A stretch of DNA of 64,000 nucleotides from Candidatus Woesebacteria bacterium RIFCSPLOWO2_01_FULL_39_23. GTDB taxonomy: Bacteria; Patescibacteriota; Microgenomatia; UBA8517. The stretch is from assembly GCA_001793095.1 (NCBI GenBank), contig MGHG01000008.1:269-64268 (forward strand). The letters are read 5' to 3'. Numbering within the stretch: position 1 is the stretch's first letter; each line of letters opens with the position of its first letter. Positions 23,288-39,979 of the stretch are shown here, one piece after another. The notes beneath the pieces are model-generated. The model made no database searches. It had not been told where the DNA came from and saw nothing but the letters and a program-made list of their open reading frames with translations. Position numbers and translations under genes: made by a program.

Positions 23288-23914
23288 ATGTCCTCTAGCA
23301 GTAAAAAGGTTAAACCAAAAGATACGGCTCAGATAGAAATTGCTGTTAAAAATGCTCGGGTCGGAAGCTCTTTTGCAATATTTGTGGATACCCAGGCCAG
23401 AAGATATACCCAAGGACAGGTGAGGGCTAGTAGTTTTAGTATATCAATTCCCTCTGGTTTTGCTAAAAGTGCTAAATTAAACATCTTAGAACCCCGTACC
23501 AGGGAAAGCCGCGGAAGATTGTTAAGTATTGATATCGATCCCCTAGAATCCAAAACGGTAGATGTAAGTCAGTATATCCCTACTCCTTCATCGTTATCAG
23601 AAGAACCAAAGTCAGAAAAAGGCAAAAAGCTAATTCAAAATAAGCTGCAAGAAAAGGTCCAGCAAGCAAAAGAAAATGCTCAAGACGCAATGCATGAGGA
23701 AGAAACCACGGCCACGCAAGAAATAACAGATGTGCCGCAACACAAGAGAAATTTTCTGGAAAACAAACTAAGAGAACAAATTCAAGAAAAAAAGGCCGTT
23801 GACTCAGGAACCCCAGAAGCAAATAATGAAAATGGTGAGAATTCTAACACCGAAGAAGCAAACCAAGATGAGGAAGGGAAACCTAAAAAAAGTTTCTGGG
23901 ATAGACTAAGGTAA
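23288..23914 (+). CDS. Hypothetical protein with K/E-rich acidic disordered C-terminal half
   Basis: N-terminal ~100-aa globular part, then a K/E/Q-rich region. Confidence 0.4.
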   Translation: MSSSSKKVKPKDTAQIEIAVKNARVGSSFAIFVDTQARRYTQGQVRASSFSISIPSGFAKSAKLNILEPRTRESRGRLLSIDIDPLESKTVDVSQYIPTPSSLSEEPKSEKGKKLIQNKLQEKVQQAKENAQDAMHEEETTATQEITDVPQHKRNFLENKLREQIQEKKAVDSGTPEANNENGENSNTEEANQDEEGKPKKSFWDRLR

Positions 23915-23936: not shown

Positions 23937-23951
23937 GTTATTAGTTATTAG
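23937..23951. repeat. Heptamer tandem repeat (GTTATTA)x2, same family as the 58129-58177 array
   Basis: GTTATTAGTTATTAG immediately upstream of the 23966 start. Confidence 0.4.
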
Positions 23952-23965
23952 TCAAATTAAATACC

Positions 23966-26900
23966 ATGGCAATTTCAGCAGATTGGGACGTCGATTTCAT
24001 TAATAAAGTTATAAGCCACGTTGATGGTACTCTAGACTATGATGGCGGCTCGGGCACATTGCCTTCCGTTGGAGCCTACGTCAAAGGTACGACTTCAAGT
24101 GCTGTCGGCAAAGTGCTCTCCATCACAACTACAGATTCCACAAGCGGTAGACTCACCCTTACCAATGTTGTAGGCAGATTTCAGGATAACGAAACTCTGG
24201 ATGCACTTGATTCCCTTGGTTTCAATTCTGTTGCAAACAGCGGTTTTAGGGTTGGCGATACTTTAAGAGATACTGCAACTAGAACCATCGATGTTGCGGC
24301 TTATGAATACAACTACACCGAAGCAACTACCGCGGGAGACGGTACGGTTTGGGGCACTTTTGCAGGAGCTGGCTCTTTTACAAACACAGAACAAATTGAC
24401 ATTTCGGCACCTGCCGCTCGAGCCCAAACAGATGTTGCCAATGTCGACGGAGCTGAAGTTGCCGGCGTATCTTTTTCAGCAGCTGCCGCTGGAGCTCTTA
24501 CCGAACCCACCGGATCTGACTGTATTATCATCAATTTTGATGCGGGTACTCAAGCCGTTCCAAGATTTGCTTTTATACAGGATGACCAAACAAACTCCCC
24601 AGGTCAAACAGCAGTTGTTCAAAAAGTTTACGGAGTTACGGCAACAGGTTCACTTCGTTTAGTCGACACGACCGGTACGTGGGCAAATAACGATAATATT
24701 TATGTTAGAAAATTACCATACGATAATTTACAGAGTACTTCGTTTAAAATCGGGGATAAAGTCGTAGGCGGAACATCCGGATATAGCGGTAAGGTAATCA
24801 ACGTTGAGGCAAGTTCATCCACCGAAGGCAAAATCACACTCCAAAATCAAACAGGTATTTTTACCAACGACGAACAAATCCGAGTACGTACAACCACCGA
24901 TACTTACTATGCTGATGTAGACATCGCAGCAACTGCTGACCAATACGAACTTGCTGCTGTCCAAAATGGAGCTCTAATCTCAAACCAGTTGCAAACTCAA
25001 GGAGGAATTTACAACGCAACAAGCTTAAATATCATTCGCGATTCAAATTCCCTATATACATTTCTCCAGGATACTCTTGATGAACTCGGAGCCTTGGATG
25101 ATGAAATTCCGATGACCGCCCAGGTTGCCTTGCAGCAGTTTACTTTGGTTAATGGCTGGAAAATTCCGGATCTTGCCTACCGATTCCTTGAGTCCGGTTC
25201 TATTCAGGACTCGGCACTTGATAATATCTGGACCAACTTCCAGTCTCTTGGATCCGTAGAAGGCATCGGTAATACTGTTTATGCAGCCACCACTCCCTTG
25301 CCTCAATTCTACATTGAACAAGACGGATCAGTTATTTCATCGTGGTGGTATTACGGGCATATAGATGTACTTGTTAAAGTTAAAACAAATTCCAACCCTG
25401 AATACTCGGCCGTGGCAACAGGTGCCTTAATCAACAGTGGTACGGTGACTATTTTTAACCGCAACTATACCCATACTTTTGACCACTTTACGACGACAAC
25501 TATAGCTGGAGTTGCTCCTATCCCTTTGGCCACTGCAAGCGACTTAAACAATGCTACAGGTACTCATCGGATTGATTATGACAATGAATCAGGCGGTCCT
25601 TTTGTGGTAGGAGAAGAAATAGTCAAAACAACCCCAACTGATGAAACCAAACGTGGCATAATTACAGCTTTGGTTGATAACGGTCTAACCGGTCAAATTA
25701 GCTATGTTCTGACGGGTGCCAATAATTTCGCAAATAACGATCAAATTACCGGTCAAACTTCCAATGCTACAGCGGACGTTAATGAGGCGGTTGAAATAGA
25801 AGAATTGGTGGCTGGCTACGGTGACAGAATCATTATTGCAACAGTAGACGGTTATGTAACTTACACCGGCGGATCGGGCACGTTCAGGAATGGCGAAACA
25901 GTTGTCCAAGTAACTACAAATGCAGCAGGCGTCATGATGTACGACGACACCATCAATAGTCGACTCTGGTTGGGAAATATCAGTGGAACATTCAGCGGCA
26001 ATAACACCATAACAGGTGATGGGAGTAGTGCAACCAAAACTTTCACCGGAGGCTCCACGTTAACCGACCAAGATACTATATCGCGGGATATCGGGGAAGG
26101 CGGTAGCCAACCTTATCACACGGTAATTTATCTTAACCGCGATGCCCAAGGTAACGGCGACACCCTTGCACATATGTACGAGTGGGTTAAGTATAGAACC
26201 AGAAGTTTGGAAACTGCAGGAGAGCCGTCTTATAATCTTTTGGGTGGTTATGGTACAAATACAGGTGTTCAGGGTCGGCTCTATATTACTCTAAACACTT
26301 CCTATGCTTTAGTTAAAGCTTCACCTCTTGGTACCTTCGCCGGAGGTACTTTCTTTGGTGCTCGTGGAGTTTTTGTCCAAAATATGAGCAGTGCAGATAT
26401 CAGAAACTATCAGCTGATCGATGCGAACGGAATTGTGCGTAACCCGCCAAATTTGCAAACTTTAACAGTTTCCGGAGTAGTCAGCGGCGATAGGGTTGCG
26501 GTTTTCCGTACCTCTGGTGGCAATATCCAGGTCGACGAGTATCAAATCGCAACAGAAGCGGGTGCGTATAATGGCGCCACAGACACTCAAATCCAAATTC
26601 AAAACGGAACAAGAAATGCAACAAGCGAGGTTACCGACATCCCGGATTCAGGTGTCATCAGAGTCCTTGATCCCAACGACACCAACTTATATCTTTCGAT
26701 TTCTTATAGCGCAATTACCAGGGCATCGACCGGTGCTATTTTTGCCCTTGATACCGGAGATAACGCCACTATTGCCTCTGTAACCACAATTAGTTTAGTT
26801 CAGGGAGATAATGCGTTTGTACCGCTAATTGAGGCGCAGGCTACAACTACAAGCGTATCAGCAAATATTGTTTACGATTCGGACGTTGGCAATATTCCAA

Positions 26901-27013
26901 TACTTACCCGTGTGCGTATCAAAGGAATTTTGCCTTTCGAGGTTGCCGGTAGCTTTACCTCTAGCGGTGCGACAGTTGCTGCTATCCGCTCACTCGACAG
27001 CATCGTTGATTAA
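23966..27013 (+). CDS. Giant Ser/Thr/Gly-rich protein with internal ~45-aa repeats (G.xV.GxTSG..GkV...) and no signal peptide
   Basis: 1015 aa. Repeated motifs include GAYVKGTTSSAVGKVLSI.., GDKVVGGTSGYSGKVINV.., EEIVKTTPTDETKRGIITAL.. Confidence 0.45.
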   Translation: MAISADWDVDFINKVISHVDGTLDYDGGSGTLPSVGAYVKGTTSSAVGKVLSITTTDSTSGRLTLTNVVGRFQDNETLDALDSLGFNSVANSGFRVGDTLRDTATRTIDVAAYEYNYTEATTAGDGTVWGTFAGAGSFTNTEQIDISAPAARAQTDVANVDGAEVAGVSFSAAAAGALTEPTGSDCIIINFDAGTQAVPRFAFIQDDQTNSPGQTAVVQKVYGVTATGSLRLVDTTGTWANNDNIYVRKLPYDNLQSTSFKIGDKVVGGTSGYSGKVINVEASSSTEGKITLQNQTGIFTNDEQIRVRTTTDTYYADVDIAATADQYELAAVQNGALISNQLQTQGGIYNATSLNIIRDSNSLYTFLQDTLDELGALDDEIPMTAQVALQQFTLVNGWKIPDLAYRFLESGSIQDSALDNIWTNFQSLGSVEGIGNTVYAATTPLPQFYIEQDGSVISSWWYYGHIDVLVKVKTNSNPEYSAVATGALINSGTVTIFNRNYTHTFDHFTTTTIAGVAPIPLATASDLNNATGTHRIDYDNESGGPFVVGEEIVKTTPTDETKRGIITALVDNGLTGQISYVLTGANNFANNDQITGQTSNATADVNEAVEIEELVAGYGDRIIIATVDGYVTYTGGSGTFRNGETVVQVTTNAAGVMMYDDTINSRLWLGNISGTFSGNNTITGDGSSATKTFTGGSTLTDQDTISRDIGEGGSQPYHTVIYLNRDAQGNGDTLAHMYEWVKYRTRSLETAGEPSYNLLGGYGTNTGVQGRLYITLNTSYALVKASPLGTFAGGTFFGARGVFVQNMSSADIRNYQLIDANGIVRNPPNLQTLTVSGVVSGDRVAVFRTSGGNIQVDEYQIATEAGAYNGATDTQIQIQNGTRNATSEVTDIPDSGVIRVLDPNDTNLYLSISYSAITRASTGAIFALDTGDNATIASVTTISLVQGDNAFVPLIEAQATTTSVSANIVYDSDVGNIPILTRVRIKGILPFEVAGSFTSSGATVAAIRSLDSIVD

Positions 27014-27319: not shown

Positions 27320-28465
27320 TCATTGTCGGTTTTGCCACTCGAAAAAATTATTTTTTGTCACTGTCTGCCAAGTAGAATTCGAGTACGCTTCTCTCCATGC
27401 TTTGGGGGGGTGAGTCCTCCCTTTTAACCACTTAACTTCATGCGCTTTGAGTACACCAGAGCTTTCTTCCACAAGATCTATCTCTTGTTTTTCATAAGTC
27501 CTCCAGAAATATAAAAGTTGACGGTTCCCTGTAAAATTATCCCGTTTTTTCTTTTCGGAAATAACAAAATTCTCCCATAACTGTCCTACATCGCTTCGCA
27601 GACTAAGTGGATTATAATTATTAATCAAAGCGTTTCTAACACCCAAATCATAGAAGTAAATTTTTCGAAGTTTCCCCAACTCTTTTCGTAAATTTCTACT
27701 GAAAGGCCTTAACTTAAAAACGATATACGCCTTTTCTAATATGTCAACATAAGTTTCTGCTGTTTGCTTGCTCACCCCAACAAGCCGTCCCAGCTCTACA
27801 TACGAGACCTCATTACCCATCTGAAGTGCAAGTCCTTCAAGAAGTTTTCTTATAACTTCTGAGCCCTTAAGATCTTGGAATTTTAGTAGATCCTTATACA
27901 GGTAATTGTTGCTGATCTTGCCAATTTCGATCTTCTTCTCGTCCAAACCCAACGAAAGAACTACGTTTGGATAACTACCATATATAAGTAAGTTCTCCAA
28001 ATCTCTATTAAATGCTAATCCATCACCTGCTTTGTAAATTTCAGATACTGCCAACGGATATAACCAAAACTCAATACTTCGCCCCGTTAAAGGCTCGCTG
28101 ACGTCATTTGCCAATTCAAACGAAGAAGACCCCGTAGCAAGTATTTGAGTTTCGGGAAAATTATCAATCAGAAGTTTCAACTTGAGTCCAATATTTCTAA
28201 CCCTCTGCGCCTCATCAATTACTACTAACTTGGCTCCCCCAATAATGTGTTTAAGGGCAACTGAAGTGTCAGCTTCCAAAAACAATTTTTGAATATCGGC
28301 CTCGTCGCAGTTAAGATATCTGGAAGGTATTGAGTCGTAATCCTGAAGAATTTTTTTGACCAGAGTAGTTTTACCAACCTGCCTGGCACCATATAAAATT
28401 AAAATGCTTTTCTTAAAAAGGTTAGATTTAATTAAGGGTTCAATTTTGCGCTCAAAATATATCAT
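27320..28465 (-). CDS. AAA-family ATPase with DUF4143 (COG1373-type ATP-binding protein)
   Basis: Walker A GARQVGKTTL; Walker B VVIDEAQ; length and architecture typical of this family. Confidence 0.7.
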   Translation of the reverse strand: MIYFERKIEPLIKSNLFKKSILILYGARQVGKTTLVKKILQDYDSIPSRYLNCDEADIQKLFLEADTSVALKHIIGGAKLVVIDEAQRVRNIGLKLKLLIDNFPETQILATGSSSFELANDVSEPLTGRSIEFWLYPLAVSEIYKAGDGLAFNRDLENLLIYGSYPNVVLSLGLDEKKIEIGKISNNYLYKDLLKFQDLKGSEVIRKLLEGLALQMGNEVSYVELGRLVGVSKQTAETYVDILEKAYIVFKLRPFSRNLRKELGKLRKIYFYDLGVRNALINNYNPLSLRSDVGQLWENFVISEKKKRDNFTGNRQLLYFWRTYEKQEIDLVEESSGVLKAHEVKWLKGRTHPPKAWREAYSNSTWQTVTKNNFFEWQNRQ

Positions 28466-28608: not shown

Positions 28609-28803
28609 ATGCCAACTGCATCGGATACAAAAAAACAAAAAGACGAGTTTGAAAAAGACAACCAATATTCGATTAAAACTCTGGAAGAAAATATTGCCAG
28701 AGCTGAGCAAAATATCCAAATATTCTCAGCTGAAGTCCAGAAACAAATAATGCTTAAGGCTGAGCTTGAAGCCCAATTGGCTGCACTCAAGGCAAAGAAA
28801 TGA
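28609..28803 (+). CDS. Small coiled-coil hypothetical protein
   Basis: 64-aa ORF, K/E/Q-rich helix; weak support. Confidence 0.25.
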   Translation: MPTASDTKKQKDEFEKDNQYSIKTLEENIARAEQNIQIFSAEVQKQIMLKAELEAQLAALKAKK

Positions 28804-30595
28804 TCCCCGGCTTTAGGCCTCCAAGATATCTTTCCCACATTATTTCGTACACTTTCTCCAGGTTTTTAACGAATAATTCTGTGTCGAATAAGGGGTAAGT
28901 CAGTCTATTAGATTTAAGTTTCAGTCTAAGTTGAAGAAGTTCTTCGGGATGGTTTGCGAGATGAACAACCAGGTTCTTATATTCTTGAAAACCGTGAGTA
29001 ATCAGCTCGGGCAGTCCTGCGGCCGTTAATATACTTGCCGCAACCCGCGAAGCAAAATGACTACCCATCAGGGTAATATAGGGTAACCCTGCCCACAGAC
29101 AGTCAGAGGAAGTAGTGTGGCCATTGACGATATATGTATCTAATCCAATATCGGCAAGTTTATGCCGTGCTAAATGCTCGGACTTATTTAATCGTGGAGC
29201 AATAATTACCCTCTCGGGATCAACTCCCCTAACTCTTGCTTCCTTTTTTAAATTCCCGGTAGTTTCATCATCGCTCTCTAGTTGCCACAACACACTTCCG
29301 GACACATCCTTTAAAATCTCCATCCATATATCAAACATCCGTGGTTCGATCTTATAAGCCTGGTTGAAAGCTGCAAAGATAACTCCTCTCTCAGGTAATC
29401 CGAAATCGGCTCTTGTATAAATCTTGTCCGAAATTACCTGAGTATTGTCAGTTATCTGATAACAACCCTGCATATAGACAACTTTCTCGCTGTAATATTT
29501 CTGGTGTTTTTTAGGAATTAAGACGCGATCGGCAATAATATAGTCCATGAAAGACGCGCCGGTTGTTCCAGGAAATCCTAACCATGTTACCTGTAAAGGT
29601 GCGGGTTTAAATGCGCAAATTTCAAGCCTGTTTCCCCGTGTATGCCCGGTTAAATCTACTAAAATATCAACCTTGTCATTATAAATCGTTTTAGCGGCTT
29701 CAGCATTGTCCATTCTCCTGACATCTAGAAACTTGTCACAACTTTTACTTATGTATTTTCTGTAATAACTATTATCATCCTCTCCGTAGGAATAGCCGAA
29801 TACCTTGAACGCACTTCTGTTATGCAATTCAAAGAGCCTTACGTCAAGATGAGCTACCGCATGATTCCTGAAATCATTAGACAGGTAGCCTATGTGAAGA
29901 ATTTTCTTTTTCCTTTTCTGAAATGAAAACTTCAAATTGACTAACGAGGCCGGCTTCCCCATATTCTTCCCCCAGATCCTTGCAACCTCAAAATTCTCTC
30001 TAACGTTTTCACTTCTTGTAATATTTATAAAAGGCGTTTCACCTGCTATCAATTCATTCGAATCAACTTTTTTCAGTTTCTTTTCTAGCTTTTTTATAGT
30101 TCTCCACTCGCATCTGTAGCGAAGAAGGTTGATAAGAAAAACATAGGCGAGTCTGTTTTCTGGATCGAGCTCGATTGTTTTTTTATATGCCGCTATCGCT
30201 TCATTTCTTTTTCCCAAATCCTTATATGCCATGCCAAGATTGCAGTATGACTCGACACTTCCCGGATTCAATTTTATTGAAGCAAGATAGCACTTAACTG
30301 CCTCGTCTAGTTTTCCAATTAAAACTAGGAGGTTGCCGAGGTTATTGAAAGTTTCAGGATAACACGGGTTGAACCTGAGTGCATTCTTATAGTCAGCCAA
30401 TGAATTATCATAAAATCCCCTCTCTTGAAAAATTACACCCCGGTTATTATAGGCAACAGCCAAGTTGAGACGGGCATCTTGATATTCAGGATCTAACCTA
30501 TAGGCTTGATTAAATTCCTCAATTGCCCGGTCCAAATTTCCGGTATTGGCTAATGCTATGGCCTTACGATTTCGGTCTTGTGCACTTAAGGTCAT
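28787..30595 (-). CDS. TPR-repeat GT41 glycosyltransferase (O-GlcNAc-transferase / SPINDLY-like), paralog 1
   Basis: N-terminal TPRs, then a C-terminal catalytic region GHTTSSDCLWAGLPYITLMGSHFASRVAASILTAAGLPELIT, close to the OGT C-terminal lobe. ATG at 30595 overlaps the upstream stop (ATGA). Confidence 0.75.
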   Translation of the reverse strand: MTLSAQDRNRKAIALANTGNLDRAIEEFNQAYRLDPEYQDARLNLAVAYNNRGVIFQERGFYDNSLADYKNALRFNPCYPETFNNLGNLLVLIGKLDEAVKCYLASIKLNPGSVESYCNLGMAYKDLGKRNEAIAAYKKTIELDPENRLAYVFLINLLRYRCEWRTIKKLEKKLKKVDSNELIAGETPFINITRSENVRENFEVARIWGKNMGKPASLVNLKFSFQKRKKKILHIGYLSNDFRNHAVAHLDVRLFELHNRSAFKVFGYSYGEDDNSYYRKYISKSCDKFLDVRRMDNAEAAKTIYNDKVDILVDLTGHTRGNRLEICAFKPAPLQVTWLGFPGTTGASFMDYIIADRVLIPKKHQKYYSEKVVYMQGCYQITDNTQVISDKIYTRADFGLPERGVIFAAFNQAYKIEPRMFDIWMEILKDVSGSVLWQLESDDETTGNLKKEARVRGVDPERVIIAPRLNKSEHLARHKLADIGLDTYIVNGHTTSSDCLWAGLPYITLMGSHFASRVAASILTAAGLPELITHGFQEYKNLVVHLANHPEELLQLRLKLKSNRLTYPLFDTELFVKNLEKVYEIMWERYLGGLKPGIISLP

Positions 30596-32391
30596 TTGAC
30601 TATCATTTTGGCAGGTTTTAAGCCTTTTAAATACCTTCTCCAAACGATTTCATATGCCTTCTCTAGGTTCTTGACAAACATGGGAGTATCAAATAAAGGA
30701 TAAGTTAGTCTATTAGATTTAAGTTTAAGTCTAAGTTGAAGAAGTTTTTCAGGGTTGGTGGCAAGTTCGATGGCCAAATCCTTGTATTCTTCAAGGGAAT
30801 AAGTAATCAGCTCAGGTAATCCCACAGCAGTCAATATGCTCGCTGCGACACGGGAGGCAAAGTGCTTGCCCTCCAGAGTGACTAGAGGTAATCCTGCCCA
30901 CAGACAATCAGATGTTGATGTATGACCGTTACAAGTCACAGTATCAAGCGCCAAGTCAGCCAGCTTCAGTCTCGCAAGATGTTCGTCTTTGGGTAACCTG
31001 CCGGCAAAGATTAACCTACCGGCTCTTACACCACATTTTGCAGCTTGCTTTTTAAGATTCTTAATCGAAGTTGCATCGTATGCCATCAACCAGATCACGC
31101 TTTTTGGGACAGTTTTTAAAATTCTCATCCACGCTTCAAAAACGTCGGGCTCGATTTTGTAGGACTGGCCTAGATAACAGTAAACAAACGCATTTTCAGG
31201 CAGGGAGAAATCCGCACGCTTAAATTTTATAGCAGAAATCTTTTGCTTGTTATCGTTAATCTGATAACAATTGGGTAAAAAAATAAGTTTTTCTGTGAAG
31301 TACTTAGCATTCCCTGGTACAACTATGTTATCAGCAATCATATAATCTATAAACTTAGCGGCAGTTGTTCCGGGAAAACCTAAATAAGTGATTTGGATTG
31401 GGGCTGGTCGATAAGTACAAATCCGCAATCTGTTGTTACCCGTATGGCCTTTGAGATCCACCAGAATATCAACCTCATCATCATTAATTTGCCTTGCGCA
31501 GTCATAATCACTCATTTTTTGCAGGTCAACAAATTTGTCGGAATCTGCCTTAATTCTTTCAACATACTTGCTTTTGTCATCATCACTATACGAATAAACG
31601 TTCACGCTAAATTTTTTTTTGTCATGGAGTCTAAATAATCCCAAAATCAGATGTGATGTTGCATGGTCGCGAAAGTCAGCAGATAAGTAGCCAAGCCTTA
31701 TCCGGTGATGTTTTCTATTTTTGTTAGTAACTGAAAAAGTATCTTTTAGTCTGCCATAGCGGTCATTTAAATCTTTAGCCCAGATTTTTGTAATTTCAAA
31801 ATTGCGCTTAGAATCAGCAGTTCTCGTAACACTGATAAAAGGTTCTTCAACCGGCATCCGGTCGATTTTTATTTGCTTATTTTCCAAAGCGTCCAACCTG
31901 CTCGCGATCTGGTAATAGTCACGCCAATCACATAAGTACCTTTTGCAGTGCAGCAAATACGCATAAGCTTTGATATGCTCCGGATCGGCTTGGTAAGCCA
32001 AGCGGAAATAGCGCACCGCCTCTCTTATGCGGTTCATATTTTTATAAATCAAGCCTAGGTTTGTAAGTGCACCTGCATGTCTGGGGTCTATCTTAACGGC
32101 CGTTTTTAACCTCTGAAGGGCTATGTCCGTAAACCCGTGTTCGTGCATAATGTTACCTATTAAAAAATGCGTCTCGGCATTTGGCGGATCCAAGAGCATC
32201 GCCCGCTGGAGATATCCTAAAGCTTCGTATGGACGGCTCAAATTATTAAGTACGATACCTAAGTTGTTTAAAATACTCTGGTGGTTGGGATTTATTGCCA
32301 ATGCCAACTGAAAATACTTTAAGGCATGGATAAAATCACCTTTCTGACTAAGCCCAGCGGCAAAGTTGTTGTACTCCTCGGCTGTTCTCAT
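30592..32391 (-). CDS. TPR-repeat GT41 glycosyltransferase (OGT-like), paralog 2
   Basis: GHTSTSDCLWAGLPLVTLEGKHFASRVAASILTAVGLPELIT; ATGA start/stop overlap with the FkbM gene. Confidence 0.75.
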   Translation of the reverse strand: MRTAEEYNNFAAGLSQKGDFIHALKYFQLALAINPNHQSILNNLGIVLNNLSRPYEALGYLQRAMLLDPPNAETHFLIGNIMHEHGFTDIALQRLKTAVKIDPRHAGALTNLGLIYKNMNRIREAVRYFRLAYQADPEHIKAYAYLLHCKRYLCDWRDYYQIASRLDALENKQIKIDRMPVEEPFISVTRTADSKRNFEITKIWAKDLNDRYGRLKDTFSVTNKNRKHHRIRLGYLSADFRDHATSHLILGLFRLHDKKKFSVNVYSYSDDDKSKYVERIKADSDKFVDLQKMSDYDCARQINDDEVDILVDLKGHTGNNRLRICTYRPAPIQITYLGFPGTTAAKFIDYMIADNIVVPGNAKYFTEKLIFLPNCYQINDNKQKISAIKFKRADFSLPENAFVYCYLGQSYKIEPDVFEAWMRILKTVPKSVIWLMAYDATSIKNLKKQAAKCGVRAGRLIFAGRLPKDEHLARLKLADLALDTVTCNGHTSTSDCLWAGLPLVTLEGKHFASRVAASILTAVGLPELITYSLEEYKDLAIELATNPEKLLQLRLKLKSNRLTYPLFDTPMFVKNLEKAYEIVWRRYLKGLKPAKMIVK

Positions 32392-33233
32392 TTTTGTTTG
32401 GCGGTAATGCGCCCAATAACCTTCTGCCAATTGTCATCTTTCCCCAAAACAGACTCTAAGTCCTCAACTTTTATGTGATTACTACTATGCAAGCAGAGCA
32501 TATTAACCTCGGGTTGAAATTGGGCAAAGACGTTTTTTTTGTTCTTAAAATAATTTTCTTCGTTGAAATAAGGAGCAACATGCCACCAACATTTATAGTG
32601 CATTTGGGTTATAAAACTTATTACTTCTTTCGAATTTTCAAGTCTGTTATTTTCCACAAACAATACCGGGTGCAAACTCTCAATTACTCGTCGTGCACCT
32701 TGCAATACTTGAATTTCCATACCTTCGACGTCAATTTTTATTAAATTGCATCTTTTTAATTTCATATCATCAAGTGCCATCTTACCGACCAAATCTCCTT
32801 GATTATATTTTTCCAGTCTTACAGCCCCGAAATTCTGCTTAGTATTTGGATCCAAAACTGGAACAGCTATTACTCCACTCTCCGATCCGGCCGCAGCGTA
32901 TACCGCTTTGACATTTAATAATCCGTTTAAGGCTATATTACCGCATAACATATTAAATGAAGTTCTCTGGGGTTCTATGGCATAGACGTACCCGCCGTTA
33001 GCTACCTGGTTGGCAAAGAAAATACTGTGTGTACCTATGAATGCTCCCACATCAACTATTACATCACCTTCTTTTATAATCTGACCCAGTAAATCAATTT
33101 CTGCCTCGCACCATTCCCCATATAAATCAAGAGATCGACCAACAAACAAGTCATTTCTGTTGTACATAAAGATTCCGTGTTTTGTTCTTTTTATAGCAAC
33201 ATATCCTGACTGAAATTGTCTTTTGGTTATCAT
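32388..33233 (-). CDS. FkbM-family methyltransferase
   Basis: VDVGAFIGTHSIFFA SAM-binding motif and FkbM-like length; embedded between OGT paralogs with 4-nt overlaps. Confidence 0.65.
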   Translation of the reverse strand: MITKRQFQSGYVAIKRTKHGIFMYNRNDLFVGRSLDLYGEWCEAEIDLLGQIIKEGDVIVDVGAFIGTHSIFFANQVANGGYVYAIEPQRTSFNMLCGNIALNGLLNVKAVYAAAGSESGVIAVPVLDPNTKQNFGAVRLEKYNQGDLVGKMALDDMKLKRCNLIKIDVEGMEIQVLQGARRVIESLHPVLFVENNRLENSKEVISFITQMHYKCWWHVAPYFNEENYFKNKKNVFAQFQPEVNMLCLHSSNHIKVEDLESVLGKDDNWQKVIGRITAKQK

Positions 33234-35410
33234 GTATGTAATATAATATTTCTTGGAAGATTACCAGAAAGGTAAGTCTTCCACATTATTTTGTAGGCCG
33301 TCTCAAGTTTGCTTACAAATCTCGGACTATCATATAAAGGTTTCGTTAGAATGTAACGAGTAAGTTTATTGTGCAATTTCAGTAATTCTTCCCTGTGAGT
33401 GGCATAATAAGTAGCAAGATCTTTATAGTCTTTTAGACTATGGCATATTAAATCCGGTAAGCCAACTGCCGTCAGTAAACTGGCGCTCATGCGGGATAAA
33501 TACGATTCGCCTGCTAAAGTAATTACGGGTACACCCACCCTAAGAGCATTACTGGTCGTTGCTCCGCCATTATAAATTCTGGTATCTAATGCCAAGTCTG
33601 CCAATTTCAATCTTTCTAAATGCTGGGGAAGGTCAATCCTGTCTGCAAATATAAGTCGATGAGGTTCAACTCCTCGTTTTTCTGCCTCATTTTTCAAATT
33701 TGTCTCGGCTTCTCTACTGCTTCTTAACAACCAAAGAACACTCCTCTCAACTGACTTAAGTATTCGCATCCAAACAGTAAACATTATTGGTTCAATTTTT
33801 AAAGTCTTATTAAAGGAACAAAATACAAAAGCGGTCTCGGGCAATCCCCAATCAGTTTTCTTGGTTTTTGTTAAAGAAATTTCCTGCGTATGGTCATTTA
33901 TTTGATAACAATCAGGCATAATCACCAGTTTCTCAGTGTAATACGTCTCTTTTTCCTTGGGTACAATTACCCGATCAACTATATTGTAATCAATAAAGTC
34001 TGCACCTAACGTTCCGGGAAATCCTAAATAAGTTACTTGAATCGGGGCCGGACGAAGAGCATTAATTATTAACCGTTCGTCTTTGGTGTGACCCTTAAGG
34101 TCAATTAATATATCAATCCTATCCTTATTAATAGTTTCAGCAGCCTCAACAAAACTACAGCTTGCGAGGTTTGTAAACTTATCAGCACCTTGGATTACTT
34201 TTTTAATATATTTATTTTCCAAGTCAAAACCATATGAATAGACATAAACTTCGAACTTTTTCCTATCGTGTAGTGAAAACATATTCTTAGTTAAATGAGC
34301 AACGGGATGGTCATTAAAGTCGTTCGTGATGTAACCCAACCTAATAATTCTCCTGTTTTTGGAATGCCTAAGATCAAAAGTGCTAGTCATCATATCCTTC
34401 GCCCTAGACTCGATAATCCTACTTCGCGCAACAGCTATGCGTTTGTGCTTCGAAAGATTATCCGAGCGTGTAATACTCATAAAAGGAAGTTCACCCAACT
34501 CGCGTTTATCCCTTAAGGATTTCAGTGTTAATTTGTCTAATAATTTGGAGTGCTTTGTTACCTCCTTCCAATCACATATATAACGCTCTAGATGAACCAG
34601 TTGAGCCAAGGCGGGTTCAAAGTCCGATTTAATTGCGAGTGCCGCAAGGTAATAGTCCCTAGCCTTAGTGACCATATCTAAATCCTCATATGCTTTTCCC
34701 AAGCTATTCAGTGCCTCGTGATAATCTATCTTAACTTCCAAGGCTTGCTTGTAATAAAAAATTGCATCCTTATATCTGCCCTCTATATGATAAACATTGC
34801 CTAAATTATAGAATGGCTCTGCGAAATTGCTCCCGTACTTAATCGCCTTTTTGAAATATTTTTTTGAGACTTCATATTCACCGTTATTGCATAAAATAGC
34901 TCCCAAATTGTTATTAGCAACCGCATTATCACTATCGATGGCGAGTACTTTTTTAAAATAATATAGAGCCTCATGTATCTTGCCTTTATCCTGCAGGGCA
35001 ACAGCCAGGTTGTTGTAGGCTCTTGCATCATGTAGGTCAAATTCAATATATTTTTTGTAGTATGTGATTGCCTGAGGTAAAAAGCCTAAGGACTGTTGAA
35101 CATATGCAAGGTTGTAATAAGCTTTGGCAAAATTATAATTTTTAGCAATCGCTTTGCGATAATACACCGAAGCGCGGTTAAGTTTATCTTGCATGAAGTA
35201 AACATTACCTAAATTAAAATACGCCGGAGCGAAATTAGGGTTTTGGGAAAGACTTGCATGAAGTAATTTTACAGCCTTGATAATATTTCCTCGATTGACA
35301 TACTCGATTCCCTTATTATTTAAGATTTCTTCTTCGGATAGTTTTTGTCTAACCATGATACTTGGGTTATTATATACACAAATGCTTACGAACATTAATG
35401 CTTCGTTCAT
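33230..35410 (-). CDS. TPR-repeat GT41 glycosyltransferase (OGT-like), paralog 3
   Basis: About 8 TPRs, then NGGATTSNALRVGVPVITLAGESYLSRMSASLLTAVGLPDLIC. Start is uncertain: ATG at 35410, alternative at 35353, track TTG at 35476. Confidence 0.7.
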   Translation of the reverse strand: MNEALMFVSICVYNNPSIMVRQKLSEEEILNNKGIEYVNRGNIIKAVKLLHASLSQNPNFAPAYFNLGNVYFMQDKLNRASVYYRKAIAKNYNFAKAYYNLAYVQQSLGFLPQAITYYKKYIEFDLHDARAYNNLAVALQDKGKIHEALYYFKKVLAIDSDNAVANNNLGAILCNNGEYEVSKKYFKKAIKYGSNFAEPFYNLGNVYHIEGRYKDAIFYYKQALEVKIDYHEALNSLGKAYEDLDMVTKARDYYLAALAIKSDFEPALAQLVHLERYICDWKEVTKHSKLLDKLTLKSLRDKRELGELPFMSITRSDNLSKHKRIAVARSRIIESRAKDMMTSTFDLRHSKNRRIIRLGYITNDFNDHPVAHLTKNMFSLHDRKKFEVYVYSYGFDLENKYIKKVIQGADKFTNLASCSFVEAAETINKDRIDILIDLKGHTKDERLIINALRPAPIQVTYLGFPGTLGADFIDYNIVDRVIVPKEKETYYTEKLVIMPDCYQINDHTQEISLTKTKKTDWGLPETAFVFCSFNKTLKIEPIMFTVWMRILKSVERSVLWLLRSSREAETNLKNEAEKRGVEPHRLIFADRIDLPQHLERLKLADLALDTRIYNGGATTSNALRVGVPVITLAGESYLSRMSASLLTAVGLPDLICHSLKDYKDLATYYATHREELLKLHNKLTRYILTKPLYDSPRFVSKLETAYKIMWKTYLSGNLPRNIILHT

Positions 35411-35501
35411 TTTCCCTGCAACTGAAGCTAGACTGGCAAACAGATTAATTAACACCTTGGGTAATAAATTCACCAATTTTGAAGCTTTTCCGCTCTATGG
35501 C

Positions 35502-36026
35502 ATGAATTCGTTTTTTCAAACTTGGAGAAATGGATTATCAAAAGCCAAAAAAAAATATCTCGTTTTAACCCACCAAGATGTGGAATTTATAAGTATTCCC
35601 GATTTAGATAAAATATTTAGTGAAAACACTGGCATGATTGGCCCTGCTGGAACTAAGATCATCACAAAAAAGGATCCATGGTGGTTCTCCCCAGGGCGAC
35701 TCGAAAATAACCACTTGTCAGGTGAGGTTTTTCATAAAAAAGGAGGCAAACGTATGACAAAGAGTTTCTACGGCAAATACGGTGAAGTTTTAGTATTGGA
35801 TGGCGTCTGTCTTATCACTGAAAAGGAAATACTTGCGAAAGTTGGTGTTCCTAAAATAACATGGGCTCGCTGGGACTTTTACGATCACGTCATCTCGCTA
35901 AAATTTATTAACAAGGGTTATACTCTTAAAACCTCACCTATTAAACTTGTCCACTTTTCCTCAGGAGAAAAAAGAAGACCCGACTACTTTAAGAACCAAG
36001 AAATATTTGTCAAAACATATTTTTAA
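35502..36026 (+). CDS. Hypothetical protein, possibly a glycosyltransferase-like fragment
   Basis: ORF from the ATG at 35502; the track's 5' extension overlaps the convergent OGT gene. No firm motif. Confidence 0.3.
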   Translation: MNSFFQTWRNGLSKAKKKYLVLTHQDVEFISIPDLDKIFSENTGMIGPAGTKIITKKDPWWFSPGRLENNHLSGEVFHKKGGKRMTKSFYGKYGEVLVLDGVCLITEKEILAKVGVPKITWARWDFYDHVISLKFINKGYTLKTSPIKLVHFSSGEKRRPDYFKNQEIFVKTYF

Positions 36027-36679
36027 TCCACAAAGTCCAGTAATCTCCTGAAATTTTTTATAACTACTTTTGCTCCAAGCTTCTCAAAATCGTCAAGCTT
36101 GTAAAACTTGTGATTGCTTTCGGGAAAATAGATAATTGTAGTTATACCCGCACGCTTGCCTCGTATAACATCTCTAGGTGAATTACCTACAAAAAGCGCC
36201 TTTCTTTTCGTACCTCCGAGTAAATCCAATACGTGTACAAGACTTTCTCCATCATTCTTGTTATCATCAACACCTCTTTTAGTGTAAATCTGATCGAAAT
36301 AACTTTTTATTTCTAGGTTGGTTAGAGCTTTTTCAACAAGATTCTTGTTTTCAGGTACCAGAAGAGCAAGCTTTTTTCGCGTCCGTTTCAAAGCAGTCAA
36401 AACAGATTTTACGCCATCAAAAAGCTCGGGTTTTTGAAGTTTACTCTCTAAAGTAGTGTAAAACCTGGAAAAGAAGTCTTGGGGATTAACCACTCCAAAG
36501 GAGGCAAAGCCGTTTAGCCATTTTCCAAAGGCCTTATCAATTATTTCTCTGTCAGTTGTTAAAATCCCTTCTTTTAATAATTCTTCTTTAAGCGTTCCCA
36601 AAACCACATCCATGGTATTAGCCAGACAGCCATCCCAATCCAGAATAATATATTGATAAGAATCCCCAACAACCCGCAT
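36023..36679 (-). CDS. HAD-superfamily hydrolase (phosphatase-like)
   Basis: Motif I ILDWDGCL (DxDG); motif IV-like GNSPRDVIRGKRAG. Confidence 0.65.
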   Translation of the reverse strand: MRVVGDSYQYIILDWDGCLANTMDVVLGTLKEELLKEGILTTDREIIDKAFGKWLNGFASFGVVNPQDFFSRFYTTLESKLQKPELFDGVKSVLTALKRTRKKLALLVPENKNLVEKALTNLEIKSYFDQIYTKRGVDDNKNDGESLVHVLDLLGGTKRKALFVGNSPRDVIRGKRAGITTIIYFPESNHKFYKLDDFEKLGAKVVIKNFRRLLDFVD

Positions 36680-36735: not shown

Positions 36736-37722
36736 TTGCCCGGTACGTATGTTACAATTAACTCTAGAATGTTCTCAGACCCGATAAAGTTTTATTTAGT
36801 TCGAGATAGTAAAATTGGTAGCTTAAAGGACGACTTCAGGAAAATTATCAATGATTTGGCCACTTATGGTGACATCGGCTTTAATCAGGCATCTGAGGGT
36901 GATGTAACCCTGTCATTCACCGAAACACCTATTAAAGCTAACTTAAAAACTTCAATTAACGTTAAAAATCAAGACTATGTAAGCTCACAGCAAATTATTT
37001 TAACTTGCGAAAGAAAAGACAACGTATCTGTAAATATTCTCAAAAATATCACATCACGTATCGGTTACAGAATATTTAATCCTCAAAACAATTATTTTCT
37101 AGTGAATAACCCCGGTATAATTGATTTAACAACCTTTGATGTTGAGGAAAAAGTATTAAAGATTTTCAAAAACTACGAACTTACTCCCCTTTTCCAATTC
37201 CAAAACAGTCTGGTCTATTTTGCCCAAGATAATAAGGGTAACATTCGCTTTATAAATAGGAATTTACTCGAACATCTTTTAGAACAACCCGCCGACCTTC
37301 CCAAACAAAAAGATTTTAGCGTTATTGTAGCGAAAGATGTTGGTCATTTCGTCGCTCTCTTTGACCGGGGGGTTATACCCACCACCTTTTATGAGTATTT
37401 TTTTAATCAGGTTATATTATTGAATTTATCGGGCGTAAATATTCACAAAACCGAAAAAGAAATATATGTCGCCCCTCTTTTCTTCCAATACAGTTCTTCC
37501 AAACAAAACTTTACTTCTCTAAAATCGGAAAAAGACTTCTCAAGGCAGGATAAGTTACATAAAGGTCGATCAGTTCGGGTGTACCTGCAAAAACTACTCA
37601 AAGATTTTAAAATAAAAAACACCATCCTGGCTGTTAAAATTGCCAGAAATATAAGCTATGTCTTTAATCAAAAAGGTGTGTTAACGCCCAGACTCAATGT
37701 TAATGTTTTTCTAGACGAATAA
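36736..37722 (+). CDS. Hypothetical protein
   Basis: 328-aa ORF with no recognizable motifs. Confidence 0.35.
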   Translation: MPGTYVTINSRMFSDPIKFYLVRDSKIGSLKDDFRKIINDLATYGDIGFNQASEGDVTLSFTETPIKANLKTSINVKNQDYVSSQQIILTCERKDNVSVNILKNITSRIGYRIFNPQNNYFLVNNPGIIDLTTFDVEEKVLKIFKNYELTPLFQFQNSLVYFAQDNKGNIRFINRNLLEHLLEQPADLPKQKDFSVIVAKDVGHFVALFDRGVIPTTFYEYFFNQVILLNLSGVNIHKTEKEIYVAPLFFQYSSSKQNFTSLKSEKDFSRQDKLHKGRSVRVYLQKLLKDFKIKNTILAVKIARNISYVFNQKGVLTPRLNVNVFLDE

Positions 37723-39098: not shown

Positions 39099-39104
39099 TT
39101 TGGC

Positions 39105-39695: not shown

Positions 39696-39778
39696 AGATC
39701 TATTCTATCCTACCCCAAGTCAAGCTTAAATTACCTATTGCAATTCATCAAACGACTAACTATTATAAGGTCAATCAT

Positions 39779-39973: not shown

Positions 39974-39979
39974 AATACT

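What the first reader, a model, noticed from the sequence alone, without database searches (positions are those of the whole stretch)
28787..35410. Translationally coupled operon of three GT41 O-GlcNAc-transferase-like TPR glycosyltransferases with an embedded FkbM methyltransferase
All three large proteins end in a catalytic lobe that closely matches the eukaryotic OGT C-terminal domain (..GHTT..D.LW.G.P..T..G....SRVAAS.LTA.GLPELI..).

The genes overlap by ATGA start/stop codons in the order OGT3-FkbM-OGT2-OGT1.

Bacterial GT41 enzymes glycosylate Ser/Thr of cytoplasmic or surface proteins such as flagellins and adhesins. Two giant Ser/Thr-rich proteins without signal peptides lie immediately upstream at 20681-27013 and are plausible substrates.

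The FkbM methyltransferase hints at a methylated glycan.
Basis: partly seen in the sequence, partly recalled or inferred. Interest (0 to 1): 0.6.

Follow-up and report, generated by a model that had tools for sequence, protein, structure and literature searches.

The report
Three-enzyme protein glycosylation operon in CPR
A tiny uncultured groundwater bacterium (Woesebacteria) carries a tightly packed operon of three human-OGT-like sugar transferases plus a methyltransferase, and in related genomes this cassette always sits beside genes for large phage-tail-fibre-like proteins, which are therefore its most likely targets.

Summary
The core observation is real. Four minus-strand genes (OGT3 33230-35356/35410, FkbM 32388-33233, OGT2 30592-32391, OGT1 28787-30595) are joined by three ATGA overlaps. 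All three large proteins are TPR + GT41 enzymes (Pfam E 1e-93 to 1e-108; best solved relatives are human and fly OGT). The fourth is an FkbM-family methyltransferase.

The window comes from Candidatus Woesebacteria RIFCSPLOWO2_01_FULL_39_23, where these genes are annotated as hypothetical.

The catalytic Lys842 and His558 equivalents are present in all three. The donor pockets differ:
- OGT2 is human-like (Cys917, HTS..D).
- OGT1 has Val917.
- OGT3 carries a conserved variant (Tyr917, GGATTSN, K898L), so it probably does not use UDP-GlcNAc.

The "Ser/Thr-rich" proteins are not upstream. They are convergent and separated from the operon by an ATPase gene, and their S/T content is a family trait. 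They are phage-fibre-like: their homologues are neighbours in tailed-phage contigs.

All five CPR GT41-FkbM cassettes examined lie within about 3 kb of an ST1015-family gene. The substrate idea is therefore supported by synteny for ST1015, though the link is untested.

Verdict: a new variant of known bacterial protein-glycosylation islands; moderately interesting.

The parts
33230..35410 (-). OGT3: about 8.5 TPRs plus a GT41 catalytic domain with a variant donor pocket (Y917, G920, A921, N925, L898, K839, L841 in human numbering). The likely true start is ATG 35356 (708 aa); 35410 gives 726 aa.
   Evidence: Pfam PF13844 E 1e-93. AF2 model pLDDT 89.5, TM 0.79/0.80 to human OGT 4gyy_A. Active-site columns. 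Start choice.
32388..33233 (-). FkbM-family SAM-dependent methyltransferase (281 aa), overlapping both neighbours by ATGA.
   Evidence: PF05050 1.2e-16 and TIGR01444 9e-26. Orthologues of 47-63% identity lie in the same cassette in L005, L007, L011 and L018.
30592..32391 (-). OGT2: about 4.5 TPRs plus a GT41 domain with a human-like donor pocket (Q839 Y841 K842 K898 H901 R904 C917 H920 T921 S922 D925).
   Evidence: PF13844 1.4e-108. Columns. 66% identical orthologue in L005.
28787..30595 (-). OGT1: about 4.5 TPRs plus a GT41 domain. The pocket is as in human OGT except V917, which is the commonest bacterial state.
   Evidence: PF13844 1.1e-104. PDB E 1e-147 to human OGT. Columns. 100% match to NCBI 'hypothetical protein A3A76_00135'.
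23966..27013 (+). ST1015: 1015-aa all-beta protein with no signal peptide. It belongs to a large Pfam-less family found in Patescibacteria and in phage contigs, and is the candidate acceptor protein.
   Evidence: No Pfam, NCBIfam or PHROG hit. More than 549 homologues, all hypothetical. AF2 pLDDT 76.8, all beta; best BFVD hits are cyanophage structural and fibre proteins. Linked to every CPR cassette seen.
20681..23170 (+). ST829: 829-aa T/G-rich protein. Residues 435-504 carry a phage tail-fibre motif. Its homologues sit next to ST1015 homologues in phage-like contigs.
   Evidence: tblastn against phages. Adjacency in L008, L020, L021 and L022.
23288..23914 (+). p208: small charged protein encoded between ST829 and ST1015, with a weak homologue at the same position in L005.
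36736..37722 (+). u328: 328-aa protein of unknown function. It was seen only in cassette-bearing loci (window, L005, L007).
   Evidence: blastp 34-35% identity. Absent from the GT41-less loci. No family hit.
37776..39098 (+). Right-handed beta-helix (NosD/tailspike-like) protein without a signal peptide. In CPR loci it is the conserved partner of ST1015-family genes and is followed by Tat genes.
   Evidence: PF13229 3e-13. Weak tail-spike PHROG hits. 42-62% identical orthologues next to ST1015-like genes in L007, L009-L012, L014 and L015.
35355..36026 (+). Glyco_tranf_2_5-like glycosyltransferase, divergent from OGT3. The two start codons overlap as CATG. A 53% identical orthologue occupies the same place in L005.
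36023..36679 (-). HAD-family phosphatase. An orthologue is present in the L005 cluster.
   Evidence: PF13419 1.4e-24..
27320..28465 (-). AAA_14/DUF4143 ATPase lying between the operon and ST1015. It is probably an unrelated insertion, because L005 has a HepT/MNT toxin-antitoxin pair at this position instead.

Best explanation
This is a cytoplasmic protein-glycosylation cassette.

Proposed mechanism:
- Three soluble TPR-GT41 glycosyltransferases and one FkbM-type O-methyltransferase are made from one translationally coupled mRNA.
- The TPR superhelices bind extended stretches of acceptor proteins; the Asn of the 'xNLG/A' motif is kept in most repeats.
- The GT-B domain transfers a sugar from a nucleotide sugar to Ser/Thr, using the conserved Lys842/His558-type site.
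- The three enzymes have three different donor pockets. OGT2 is human-like (Cys at the 'gate' position 917) and most likely uses UDP-GlcNAc. OGT1 (Val917) is the common bacterial type. OGT3 (Tyr917, GGATTSN loop, K898L, D925N) most likely uses a smaller or different nucleotide sugar.
- Together they would add different sugars at different sites, or extend one another's product. FkbM would then O-methylate a sugar hydroxyl.
- The most likely acceptors are the neighbouring large beta-rich proteins that lack signal peptides: the ST1015 family, with ST829 and the beta-helix protein as possible further targets. These are relatives of phage tail-fibre and tailspike proteins retained in CPR chromosomes.

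What is shown: family membership, fold, key residues, coupling and synteny. What is inferred: the donors, the acceptors, sugar methylation, and any role in cell-surface or host attachment.
For: Family and fold: Pfam, NCBIfam and PDB matches. The OGT3 model superposes on human OGT (TM 0.79-0.80, rmsd 3.0 A) and on XcOGT (TMt 0.88-0.91).

Residues: K842 and H558 equivalents are present in all three enzymes. OGT2 matches human OGT at 10 of 11 donor-contact positions, with T922S.

[quoted passage not shown] Here it is C, V and Y in the three paralogues. The OGT3 variant set is conserved in its 58% identical L005 orthologue and recurs in unrelated proteins (YNGGATT.N loops), so it is a maintained subclass and not decay.

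Coupling: three ATGA overlaps.

Synteny: every CPR GT41-GT41-FkbM cassette examined (window, L005, L007, L011, L018) lies within about 3 kb of an ST1015-family gene. The genes are co-directional in L007, L011 and L018, at protein identities of 32-72% and with different gene orders. None of 32 other FkbM loci of at least 5 kb has GT41 or ST1015.

Precedents:
- A 54% identical FkbM sits with TPR-glycosyltransferases directly upstream of flagellin, FliD and FlaG in a Chloroflexota MAG.
- GT41 plus methyltransferase is known in enterobacterial flagellin glycosylation islands (PMC4875605).
- Synechococcus Ogt is needed for pilin glycosylation (10.1101/2021.07.06.449578).

Localisation: no signal peptide or TM segment in the enzymes or in the candidate substrates, which fits cytoplasmic modification.
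Against: - There is no biochemical or proteomic evidence.
- Of 13 loci found through ST1015 itself, only one carries the cassette. Glycosylation is therefore at most an accessory decoration. Linkage could also reflect a shared hotspot for accessory genes; toxin-antitoxin and ATPase insertions occur at the same spot.
- The five cassette loci are related genomes, so they are not fully independent, and three of them were chosen through FkbM.
- In the window the cassette and ST1015 are convergent and separated by another gene.
- XcOGT and TtOGT, the solved bacterial GT41s, showed no O-GlcNAc activity on bacterial substrates, so donor and acceptor predictions for bacterial GT41s have a poor record.
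- No nucleotide-sugar biosynthesis gene lies in the window.
- The His498 equivalent of human OGT is Thr, although that residue's role as catalytic base is disputed (my own knowledge).
Confidence: 0.5

Rival explanations
1. The three enzymes are general nucleocytoplasmic-type O-glycosyl (O-GlcNAc-like) regulators. They would modify many cytoplasmic proteins, as eukaryotic OGT/SPY or Yersinia HmwC do, and the neighbouring fibre-like genes are irrelevant.
For: The closest solved relatives are human and fly OGT, and OGT2 has a human-like donor pocket including Cys917, which is rare among bacterial relatives (9 of 120). The enzymes are soluble. Multi-substrate O-GlcNAcylation by a bacterial GT41 has been reported (PMC11329713, abstract seen).
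Against: Three paralogues with different pockets plus a sugar methyltransferase suggest glycan building rather than a simple on/off mark. No O-GlcNAcase was found among about 40 window ORFs scanned, though the rest of the genome was not checked. The recurrent linkage to ST1015-family genes would be left unexplained.
Confidence: 0.15
2. The cassette glycosylates other exported proteins encoded elsewhere in the genome, such as type IV pilins, S-layer proteins or sortase substrates. This would parallel Synechococcus Ogt acting on PilA or flagellin islands in motile bacteria.
For: Bacterial GT41s are linked to pilin and flagellin glycosylation. The FkbM clade occurs in a flagellin island. A sortase and a PA14/PKD surface protein lie in the window.
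Against: No pilin or flagellin gene was found near the cassette in the window or in L005, L007, L011 or L018. The only recurrent neighbours are ST1015-family, beta-helix and Tat genes.
Confidence: 0.2
3. The enzymes act on a non-protein acceptor, such as a cell-wall or capsular glycan or a lipid, and FkbM caps the glycan in the way RfbT or NoeI do.
For: FkbM relatives methylate O-antigen and Nod-factor sugars (my own knowledge; weak RfbT Pfam hit). A GT2_5-like transferase and a HAD phosphatase are adjacent. The GT41 enzyme HMW1C can also form sugar-sugar bonds.
Against: TPR domains with a retained Asn ladder are peptide-binding modules in every characterised GT41 (for the motifs; my own knowledge for their function). 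There is no flippase, polymerase, or undecaprenyl-phosphate or other membrane component in the cassette.
Confidence: 0.1
4. The whole block (ST829, p208, ST1015, cassette, u328, beta-helix) is a degraded prophage or phage-derived island. The cassette would be phage cargo that once decorated virion fibres and has no current cellular role.
For: ST829 and ST1015 homologues are neighbours in contigs carrying HK97-type or Gp23 capsid genes and the podophage fibre protein Gp80. ST829 has a tail-fibre motif. The beta-helix protein has weak tailspike hits.
Against: No capsid, portal or terminase gene was seen in the window's flanks or in the L007 locus. The order ST1015-like, beta-helix, TatC, then the 967-aa SH3 protein is conserved across at least seven CPR loci at 33-62% identity, which argues for long-term chromosomal retention. 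All ORFs are intact, and the OGT3-type pocket is conserved under selection. No phage contig examined carries the GT41 cassette.
Confidence: 0.1

Closest known systems
Metazoan O-GlcNAc transferase (human OGT, Drosophila OGT; CAZy GT41)
   Same: TPR superhelix fused to a GT-B catalytic domain. 40-45% identity over the catalytic lobes. K842, H558, H901 and R904 are conserved in all three paralogues. OGT2 keeps the whole UDP-GlcNAc pocket including C917.
   Different: No intervening domain (Int-D), as alignment gaps show. Only 4.5-8.5 TPRs against 13.5. H498 is replaced by Thr. There are three paralogues with different pockets, encoded in an operon with a methyltransferase.
Bacterial GT41 homologues with solved structures: Xanthomonas XcOGT (2JLB/2VSN) and Thermobaculum TtOGT (5DJS)
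   Same: Short TPR domain plus a GT41 domain without Int-D. The OGT3 model matches XcOGT with TMt 0.88-0.91. Tyr at the 917 position is shared with OGT3.
   Different: Sequence scores are lower than to human OGT (236/180 and 167/155 bits against 293/267). Those are single genes with unknown substrates. OGT3 has further changes (G920, A921, N925, L898).
Plant and protist SPINDLY protein O-fucosyltransferase (GT41)
   Same: Same fold. A bulky aromatic residue at the gate position (SPY Y744, OGT3 Y917) and loss of His920, implying a donor other than UDP-GlcNAc.
   Different: The OGT3 loop is GGATTSN, not the SPY-type GTTTTCE, which is common in other bacterial GT41 domains. Overall similarity to SPY is lower than to OGT.
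Flagellin glycosylation islands with GT41 (COG3914) and methyltransferases (Enterobacteriaceae, PMC4875605), and the Chloroflexota locus L006
   Same: A TPR-containing protein glycosyltransferase plus an FkbM or AdoMet methyltransferase, encoded beside the structural protein that is modified in the cytoplasm before export.
   Different: There are no flagellar genes here. The neighbouring structural genes are phage-fibre-like proteins of a CPR-specific family. The window has three separate GT41 genes rather than one GT41-methyltransferase fusion.
HMW1C/NGT-HMW1 adhesin system (GT41 N-glycosyltransferases)
   Same: A cytoplasmic GT41 enzyme encoded next to the large secreted protein it decorates. 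It can also make sugar-sugar bonds.
   Different: NGTs lack TPRs and modify Asn. The NCBIfam NGTferase model scores only 23-45 bits against a cut-off of 1000.

Membership tests
CAZy GT41 / Pfam PF13844 (OGT-SPY family) | Significant match to the Glyco_transf_41 profile above the curated cut-off | tested here: met
   348, 361 and 312 bits against a cut-off of 25 for OGT1, OGT2 and OGT3.
CAZy GT41 / Pfam PF13844 (OGT-SPY family) | N-terminal TPR superhelix contiguous with a two-lobed GT-B catalytic domain | tested here: met
   TPR Pfam hits in all three. The OGT3 AF2 model (pLDDT 89.5) has 8.5 TPRs plus GT-B and TM 0.79-0.80 to 4gyy_A. OGT1 and OGT2 align to human TPR10-13.5 plus the catalytic lobes.
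CAZy GT41 / Pfam PF13844 (OGT-SPY family) | Essential phosphate-binding Lys (hOGT K842 / SPY K665) and His558 (SPY H495) | tested here: met
   Present in OGT1, OGT2 and OGT3 and in all CPR orthologues aligned. K842 is found in 120 of 120 and H558 in 118 of 120 homologues.
O-GlcNAc transferase proper (UDP-GlcNAc:protein O-GlcNAc transferase) | UDP-GlcNAc pocket: Q839, Y841, K898, H901, C917 (small gate residue), H920, T921, T922, D925 | tested here: inconclusive
   OGT2 is fully met (T922S is conservative). OGT1 is met except C917V. OGT3 is not met, with K839, L841, L898, Y917, G920, A921 and N925. The role of position 917 is taken from PMC9715652.
O-GlcNAc transferase proper (UDP-GlcNAc:protein O-GlcNAc transferase) | Demonstrated transfer of GlcNAc to Ser/Thr of proteins | not testable with these tools
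   Needs enzyme assays or glycoproteomics.
Metazoan-type OGT | Intervening domain (Int-D) between the N-Cat and C-Cat lobes; about 13.5 TPRs | tested here: not met
   Query residues 387-392 bridge human residues 741-859 in 7ntf numbering. There are 4.5-8.5 TPRs.
FkbM-family methyltransferase (TIGR01444 / PF05050) | Profile match above the cut-off and a class I SAM-binding glycine motif | tested here: met
   91 bits against 37.7 and 61.8 against 22.7. The motif VIVDVGAFIGTHS is in the sequence, with D61, G63, G67, T68 and H69 invariant in five cassette orthologues.
Flagellin glycosylation island | Flagellin or flagellar genes adjacent to the glycosyltransferase genes | tested here: not met
   No Flagellin_N/C or other flagellar family was found in the window ORFs scanned or in L005, L007 and L018. 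They are present only in the Chloroflexota locus L006.
HMW1C-like N-glycosyltransferase | Match to the NGT equivalog; an all-alpha AAD domain in place of TPRs | tested here: not met
   NF049992 scores 22.6, 45.1 and 24.9 bits against a cut-off of 1000. TPRs are present.
SPINDLY-type O-fucosyltransferase | Tyr at the gate position plus a GTTTT(C/F)E-type loop; GDP-fucose donor | tested here: inconclusive
   OGT3 has the Tyr, but its loop is GGATTSN. The donor cannot be tested here.

The most novel reading that the evidence does not exclude
CPR bacteria have kept phage tail-fibre and tailspike genes (the ST1015, ST829 and beta-helix families) as chromosomal genes beside their Tat machinery. They may use them as a host-attachment or surface apparatus. 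In some lineages a dedicated cytoplasmic GT41 x2-3 + FkbM cassette decorates these fibres with a mixed, methylated O-glycan before they leave the cell. OGT3 would represent an uncharacterised GT41 donor class (the YNGGATT.N loop).
Probability: 0.2. Interest if true: 0.8.

Novelty: new variant of a known kind. Interest (0 to 1): 0.5.

Why it matters
Bacterial GT41 enzymes are extremely common: 39,548 clusters at 50% identity match the OGT3 catalytic domain. Yet almost none has a known donor or acceptor, and the solved bacterial examples showed no activity on bacterial substrates.

This locus offers an unusually testable case. It holds three paralogues with three distinct donor pockets, one of them human-like, together with a sugar methyltransferase and a recurrent candidate acceptor encoded next door.

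It would also be the first indication of protein glycosylation machinery tied to a specific structural protein family in CPR bacteria. My search found no paper linking GT41 and Patescibacteria. In addition, it points to phage-fibre-like proteins that are stably kept in CPR chromosomes.

Tried and rejected
- Viral-contig scans with ST829 and ST1015 found no confirmed relatives.
- tblastn of ST1015 against GenBank phages gave no match.
- PDB sequence searches with the ST1015 profile, the beta-helix protein and ST829 found nothing usable.
- Foldseek of the ST1015 model against the PDB returned only generic Ig-like sandwiches (E > 0.03).
- The BFVD hits are significant by E-value but have TM about 0.13, so they support only a 'phage structural-protein-like beta beads' reading.
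- Promoter and terminator consensus scans were at the level of shuffled sequence and uninformative.
- A search for twin-arginine signals in window ORFs, to test Tat export of the fibre proteins, found none.
- The idea that S/T richness marks glycosylated family members was rejected, because GT41-linked and unlinked homologues have the same S+T content.
- The idea that OGT3 is a decaying pseudo-enzyme was rejected, because its variant residues are conserved in orthologues and recur elsewhere.
- The idea that this FkbM clade is generally GT41-linked was rejected: 0 of 32 metagenome loci and locus L019 show no such link.
- All 24 contigs carrying OGT1 itself come from the same organism, so they gave no comparative information.

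Full report

Yes, for its core. The minus strand between 28787 and about 35400 carries four consecutive ORFs. Reading the sequence shows that each stop overlaps the next start as ATGA:
- OGT3/FkbM at 33230-33233.
- FkbM/OGT2 at 32388-32391.
- OGT2/OGT1 at 30592-30595.

Pfam gives Glyco_transf_41 at E 1e-104 (OGT1), 1e-108 (OGT2) and 1e-93 (OGT3), with many TPR families in each N-terminus. The 281-aa protein gives Methyltransf_21/FkbM at 1e-16, and NCBIfam TIGR01444 scores it 91 bits against a cut-off of 37.7.

Against all PDB sequences the best matches are human and Drosophila OGT: E 1e-147 for full-length OGT1, and 293-314 bits (OGT1) or 267 bits (OGT3) for the catalytic domains. These lie ahead of Xanthomonas XcOGT (236/180 bits), Arabidopsis SPY (178/180) and Thermobaculum TtOGT (167/155). 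The metazoan intervening domain is absent.

An AlphaFold2 model of OGT3 (pLDDT 89.5, pTM 0.85) has 8.5 TPRs and a GT-B domain. It superposes on human OGT 4gyy_A with TM 0.79/0.80 and rmsd 3.0 A, and on XcOGT with target-normalised TM 0.88-0.91.

Two details of the finding are wrong:
- The quoted GHTT..D.LW motif is not present in OGT3, which reads GGATTSNALR.
- The two large proteins are not upstream. They lie on the opposite strand, convergent with the operon's 3' end, with an AAA_14/DUF4143 ATPase gene (27320-28465) between them.

**2. Origin**

OGT1 is 100% identical to 'hypothetical protein A3A76_00135' of Candidatus Woesebacteria bacterium RIFCSPLOWO2_01_FULL_39_23. The same 60-65 kb contig recurs in several groundwater assemblies.

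The window is chromosomal. It carries 23S and 5S rRNA, Rho, RadA, S1, Pth and Tat genes. The three paralogues are only 42-46% identical to one another, and OGT1 (the only one searched) is at most 49% identical to anything outside this organism.

**3. Active sites**

I mapped human OGT numbering from the HMMER alignments and checked the offset using H558 and K842. I then aligned the three paralogues with their CPR relatives.
- H558, K842, H901 and R904 are present in all three.
- OGT2 matches human OGT at Q839, Y841, K898, C917, H920, T921 and D925, with T922S.
- OGT1 differs only by V917. That is the commonest state among its 120 best homologues (V 75, Y 35, C 9).
- OGT3 has K839, L841, L898, Y917, G920, A921, N925 and R928.

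The SPY crystal-structure paper argues that the residue at the C917/Y744 position sets the size of the sugar pocket. Cys goes with GlcNAc, while Tyr or Phe goes with smaller sugars. XcOGT and TtOGT, which both have Tyr there, lack O-GlcNAc activity on bacterial substrates (PMC9715652).

The OGT3 residue set is identical in its 58% identical orthologue in locus L005 and in a third L005 fragment. YNGGATT.N loops also recur in unrelated GT41 proteins. OGT3 therefore represents a maintained subclass rather than a decaying copy.

The operon thus encodes three GT41 enzymes with three donor-pocket types. Most TPRs keep the Asn of the xNLG/A motif. In human OGT that Asn forms the peptide-binding ladder (my own knowledge).

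**4. Surroundings and comparative genomics**

The FkbM protein has many homologues of about 50% identity. I examined the contexts of five of them:
- L005, the best hit at 63% identity: GT41, FkbM and GT41, next to homologues of ST1015 (72% and 57%, split in two), p208, u328, the beta-helix protein, the GT2_5-like gene, HAD and Tat genes.
- L007, a complete 785-kb Patescibacteria genome: GT41, GT41, FkbM, two small genes, then co-directional ST1015-like, u328-like and beta-helix genes, followed by TatA and TatC.
- L018, another Patescibacteria MAG: GT41, GT41, FkbM, the same two small genes, then a protein of more than 2827 aa whose C-terminus belongs to the ST1015 family.
- L006, Chloroflexota at 54% identity: FkbM plus two TPR-GT92 genes directly upstream of flagellin, FliD and FlaG.
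- L019: nothing relevant.

The identities quoted for L005, L007 and L018 come from blastp and tblastn.

A genome-collection scan with an ST1015 alignment gave ten loci. In the CPR ones the conserved core is ST1015-like, beta-helix, TatC, then a 967-aa SH3 membrane protein. Only L011 adds GT41, GT41 and FkbM, again immediately upstream of and co-directional with the ST1015-like gene.

A metagenome scan with the FkbM alignment gave 32 loci of at least 5 kb, none with GT41 or ST1015.

Summary of the linkage:
- All five CPR GT41-FkbM cassettes seen lie within about 3 kb of an ST1015-family gene, despite rearranged gene orders.
- Most ST1015 loci lack the cassette, so the cassette behaves as an accessory module attached to this locus.
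- u328 was seen only in cassette-bearing loci.

**5. What the 'Ser/Thr-rich giants' are**

ST829 and ST1015 are unrelated to each other. Neither has a Pfam, NCBIfam or PHROG assignment, and neither has a signal peptide or TM segment.

ST1015 belongs to a family of more than 549 proteins, all annotated as hypothetical; the few hits that carry an organism name are mostly Patescibacteria. Its C-terminal 571 residues model as all-beta domains (pLDDT 76.8). These resemble predicted cyanophage structural and fibre proteins (BFVD E down to 5e-8, but TM only about 0.13) and nothing in the PDB.

ST829 residues 435-504 match rhizobiophage tail-fibre proteins.

Homologues of ST829 and ST1015 are direct neighbours in four phage-like contigs:
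- L008, which also has an HK97-type major head protein (phrog_267, 9e-20) and a minor tail protein.
- L020, with a Gp23 capsid fragment and the 'podophage GP4 fiber I gp80' domain close upstream of the ST1015 homologue.
- L021, with a beta-helix protein downstream.
- L022, with Gp80 immediately upstream.

The proteins are therefore phage tail-fibre or tailspike relatives.

In CPR chromosomes they are not part of an obvious intact prophage, and they keep a conserved position next to Tat genes. S+T content is 17-26% across the family irrespective of GT41 linkage, so composition is not evidence of glycosylation.

**6. Most likely mechanism**

Shown:
- Four translationally coupled genes.
- GT41 fold and catalytic residues.
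- Three distinct donor pockets.
- FkbM family membership.
- Soluble proteins.
- Recurrent synteny with ST1015-family genes.

Inferred:
- The enzymes bind extended segments of the fibre-like proteins through their TPRs in the cytoplasm and O-glycosylate Ser/Thr.
- OGT2 uses UDP-GlcNAc, OGT1 probably a UDP-HexNAc or hexose, and OGT3 a smaller or different nucleotide sugar.
- FkbM methylates a sugar hydroxyl.
- The decorated proteins are then assembled or exported by an unknown route. I found no Tat signal.

Precedents are GT41 plus methyltransferase in flagellin glycosylation islands (PMC4875605), the FkbM/TPR-GT/flagellin locus L006, pilin glycosylation that depends on Synechococcus Ogt, and HMW1C with the HMW1 adhesin.

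I put 0.5 on this composite explanation. Family membership alone is near certain.

**7. Rivals**

- A general O-GlcNAc-like regulatory system (0.15).
- Targets elsewhere in the genome, such as pilins or surface proteins (0.2).
- Non-protein acceptors (0.1).
- A decaying phage island with no current role (0.1).

None of these is excluded. The main weaknesses of the preferred model are the lack of biochemical or proteomic data, the non-independence of the five related loci, and the poor track record of predicting activities for bacterial GT41s.

**8. Novelty and interest**

GT41/TPR proteins are abundant in bacteria. The OGT3 catalytic domain matches 39,548 clusters at 50% identity, and the top hits are giant proteins with 2-6 GT41 domains. 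The enzyme family is therefore known, and clustering of GT41 with methyltransferases is known from flagellin islands.

What appears new:
- The CPR setting. My search found no paper linking GT41 with Patescibacteria.
- The combination of three donor-pocket classes in one coupled operon.
- The conserved OGT3-type loop.
- The specific association with a phage-fibre-like protein family kept in CPR chromosomes.

I rate it a new variant of a known kind, with interest 0.5.

Noticed in passing
window 59833-63944 (-), with 60968-61111: The bacterial 23S rRNA match spans 4112 nt for a 2925-nt model, so it holds about 1.2 kb of insertions. A sub-threshold group I intron match lies inside it (37.9 bits, E 3e-7). 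Insertion-bearing rRNA genes are typical of CPR bacteria. The 5S rRNA is at 59536-59652.
   Followed up: partly
window 28901-28941 vs 30706-30746: OGT1 and OGT2 are 53% identical in DNA overall, but share a 40-nt patch with one mismatch near their 3' ends (80% nucleotide identity over about 90 nt). This suggests local gene conversion between the paralogues, or strong constraint on the C-terminal helix.
   Followed up: partly
window 35354-35357: If the orthologue-supported starts are right, the divergent OGT3 gene (ATG 35356, minus strand) and the Glyco_tranf_2_5-like gene (ATG 35355, plus strand) have start codons overlapping in the palindrome CATG. Each promoter would then lie inside the other gene. 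Annotators disagree on both starts.
   Followed up: partly
window 27320-28465; L005 10772-11616: The slot between the GT41 cassette and the ST1015 gene holds an AAA_14/DUF4143 ATPase in the window but a HepT/MNT toxin-antitoxin pair in L005. It looks like a hotspot for accessory gene insertion.
   Followed up: no
window 28609-28803 (+): A 64-aa ORF antisense to, and overlapping, the last 17 nt of OGT1 is called as a gene in all public annotations of this contig. It has no family hit on record.
   Followed up: no
window 37776-41538; L007, L009-L012, L014, L015: The beta-helix gene is followed within about 1 kb by several TatA copies and TatC, and then by a 967-aa SH3-domain membrane protein (window 43054-45957). 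This order holds across at least seven CPR loci. The cluster proteins show no twin-arginine signal, so the reason for the conserved linkage is unexplained.
   Followed up: partly
L008 (QMZE01000006.1, binned as Archaeoglobales), L020, L022: These contigs carry ST829- and ST1015-like genes and look like tailed-phage genomes (HK97-type head protein, Gp23 fragment, Gp80 fibre protein). L008 has 35% GC and all its genes on one strand, so it may be a virus mis-binned into an archaeal MAG.
   Followed up: partly
proteins P0361-P0509: The best matches of the OGT3 catalytic domain among 1.8 billion representatives are giant proteins of 1000-3800 aa with 2-6 GT41 domains in one chain. Their donor loops are diverse: GTTTTCE, GHTTTSD, GGGTTCD and GGLTTLE. 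This is a fused counterpart of the three-gene arrangement here.
   Followed up: partly
L006 1040-6305; L023 12635 onward: In a Chloroflexota MAG, a 54% identical FkbM is followed by two TPR + Glyco_transf_92 proteins and then flagellin, FliD and FlaG. This is a flagellin glycosylation island built on GT92 rather than GT41. A 74% identical GT92-TPR gene follows FkbM in L023 as well.
   Followed up: no
window 13741-18261 (-) and 11554-13194 (+): Four tandem single-domain response-regulator genes lie downstream of a CHASE/PAS histidine kinase gene, with a Cache-domain sensor nearby. This is an unusually dense signalling cluster for a small CPR genome.
   Followed up: no
window 152-3643 (+): A 1163-aa protein has five Laminin_G_3 (concanavalin-like lectin) domains (E 4e-122) and a sialidase-N-like region. 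It is a probable carbohydrate-binding surface protein.
   Followed up: no
L021 1-825: In the phage-like array that contains ST829-, ST1015- and beta-helix homologues, the first gene encodes a 953-aa protein with GT4 and GT9 glycosyltransferase domains. Glycosyltransferases of other families may therefore also accompany this fibre module.
   Followed up: no
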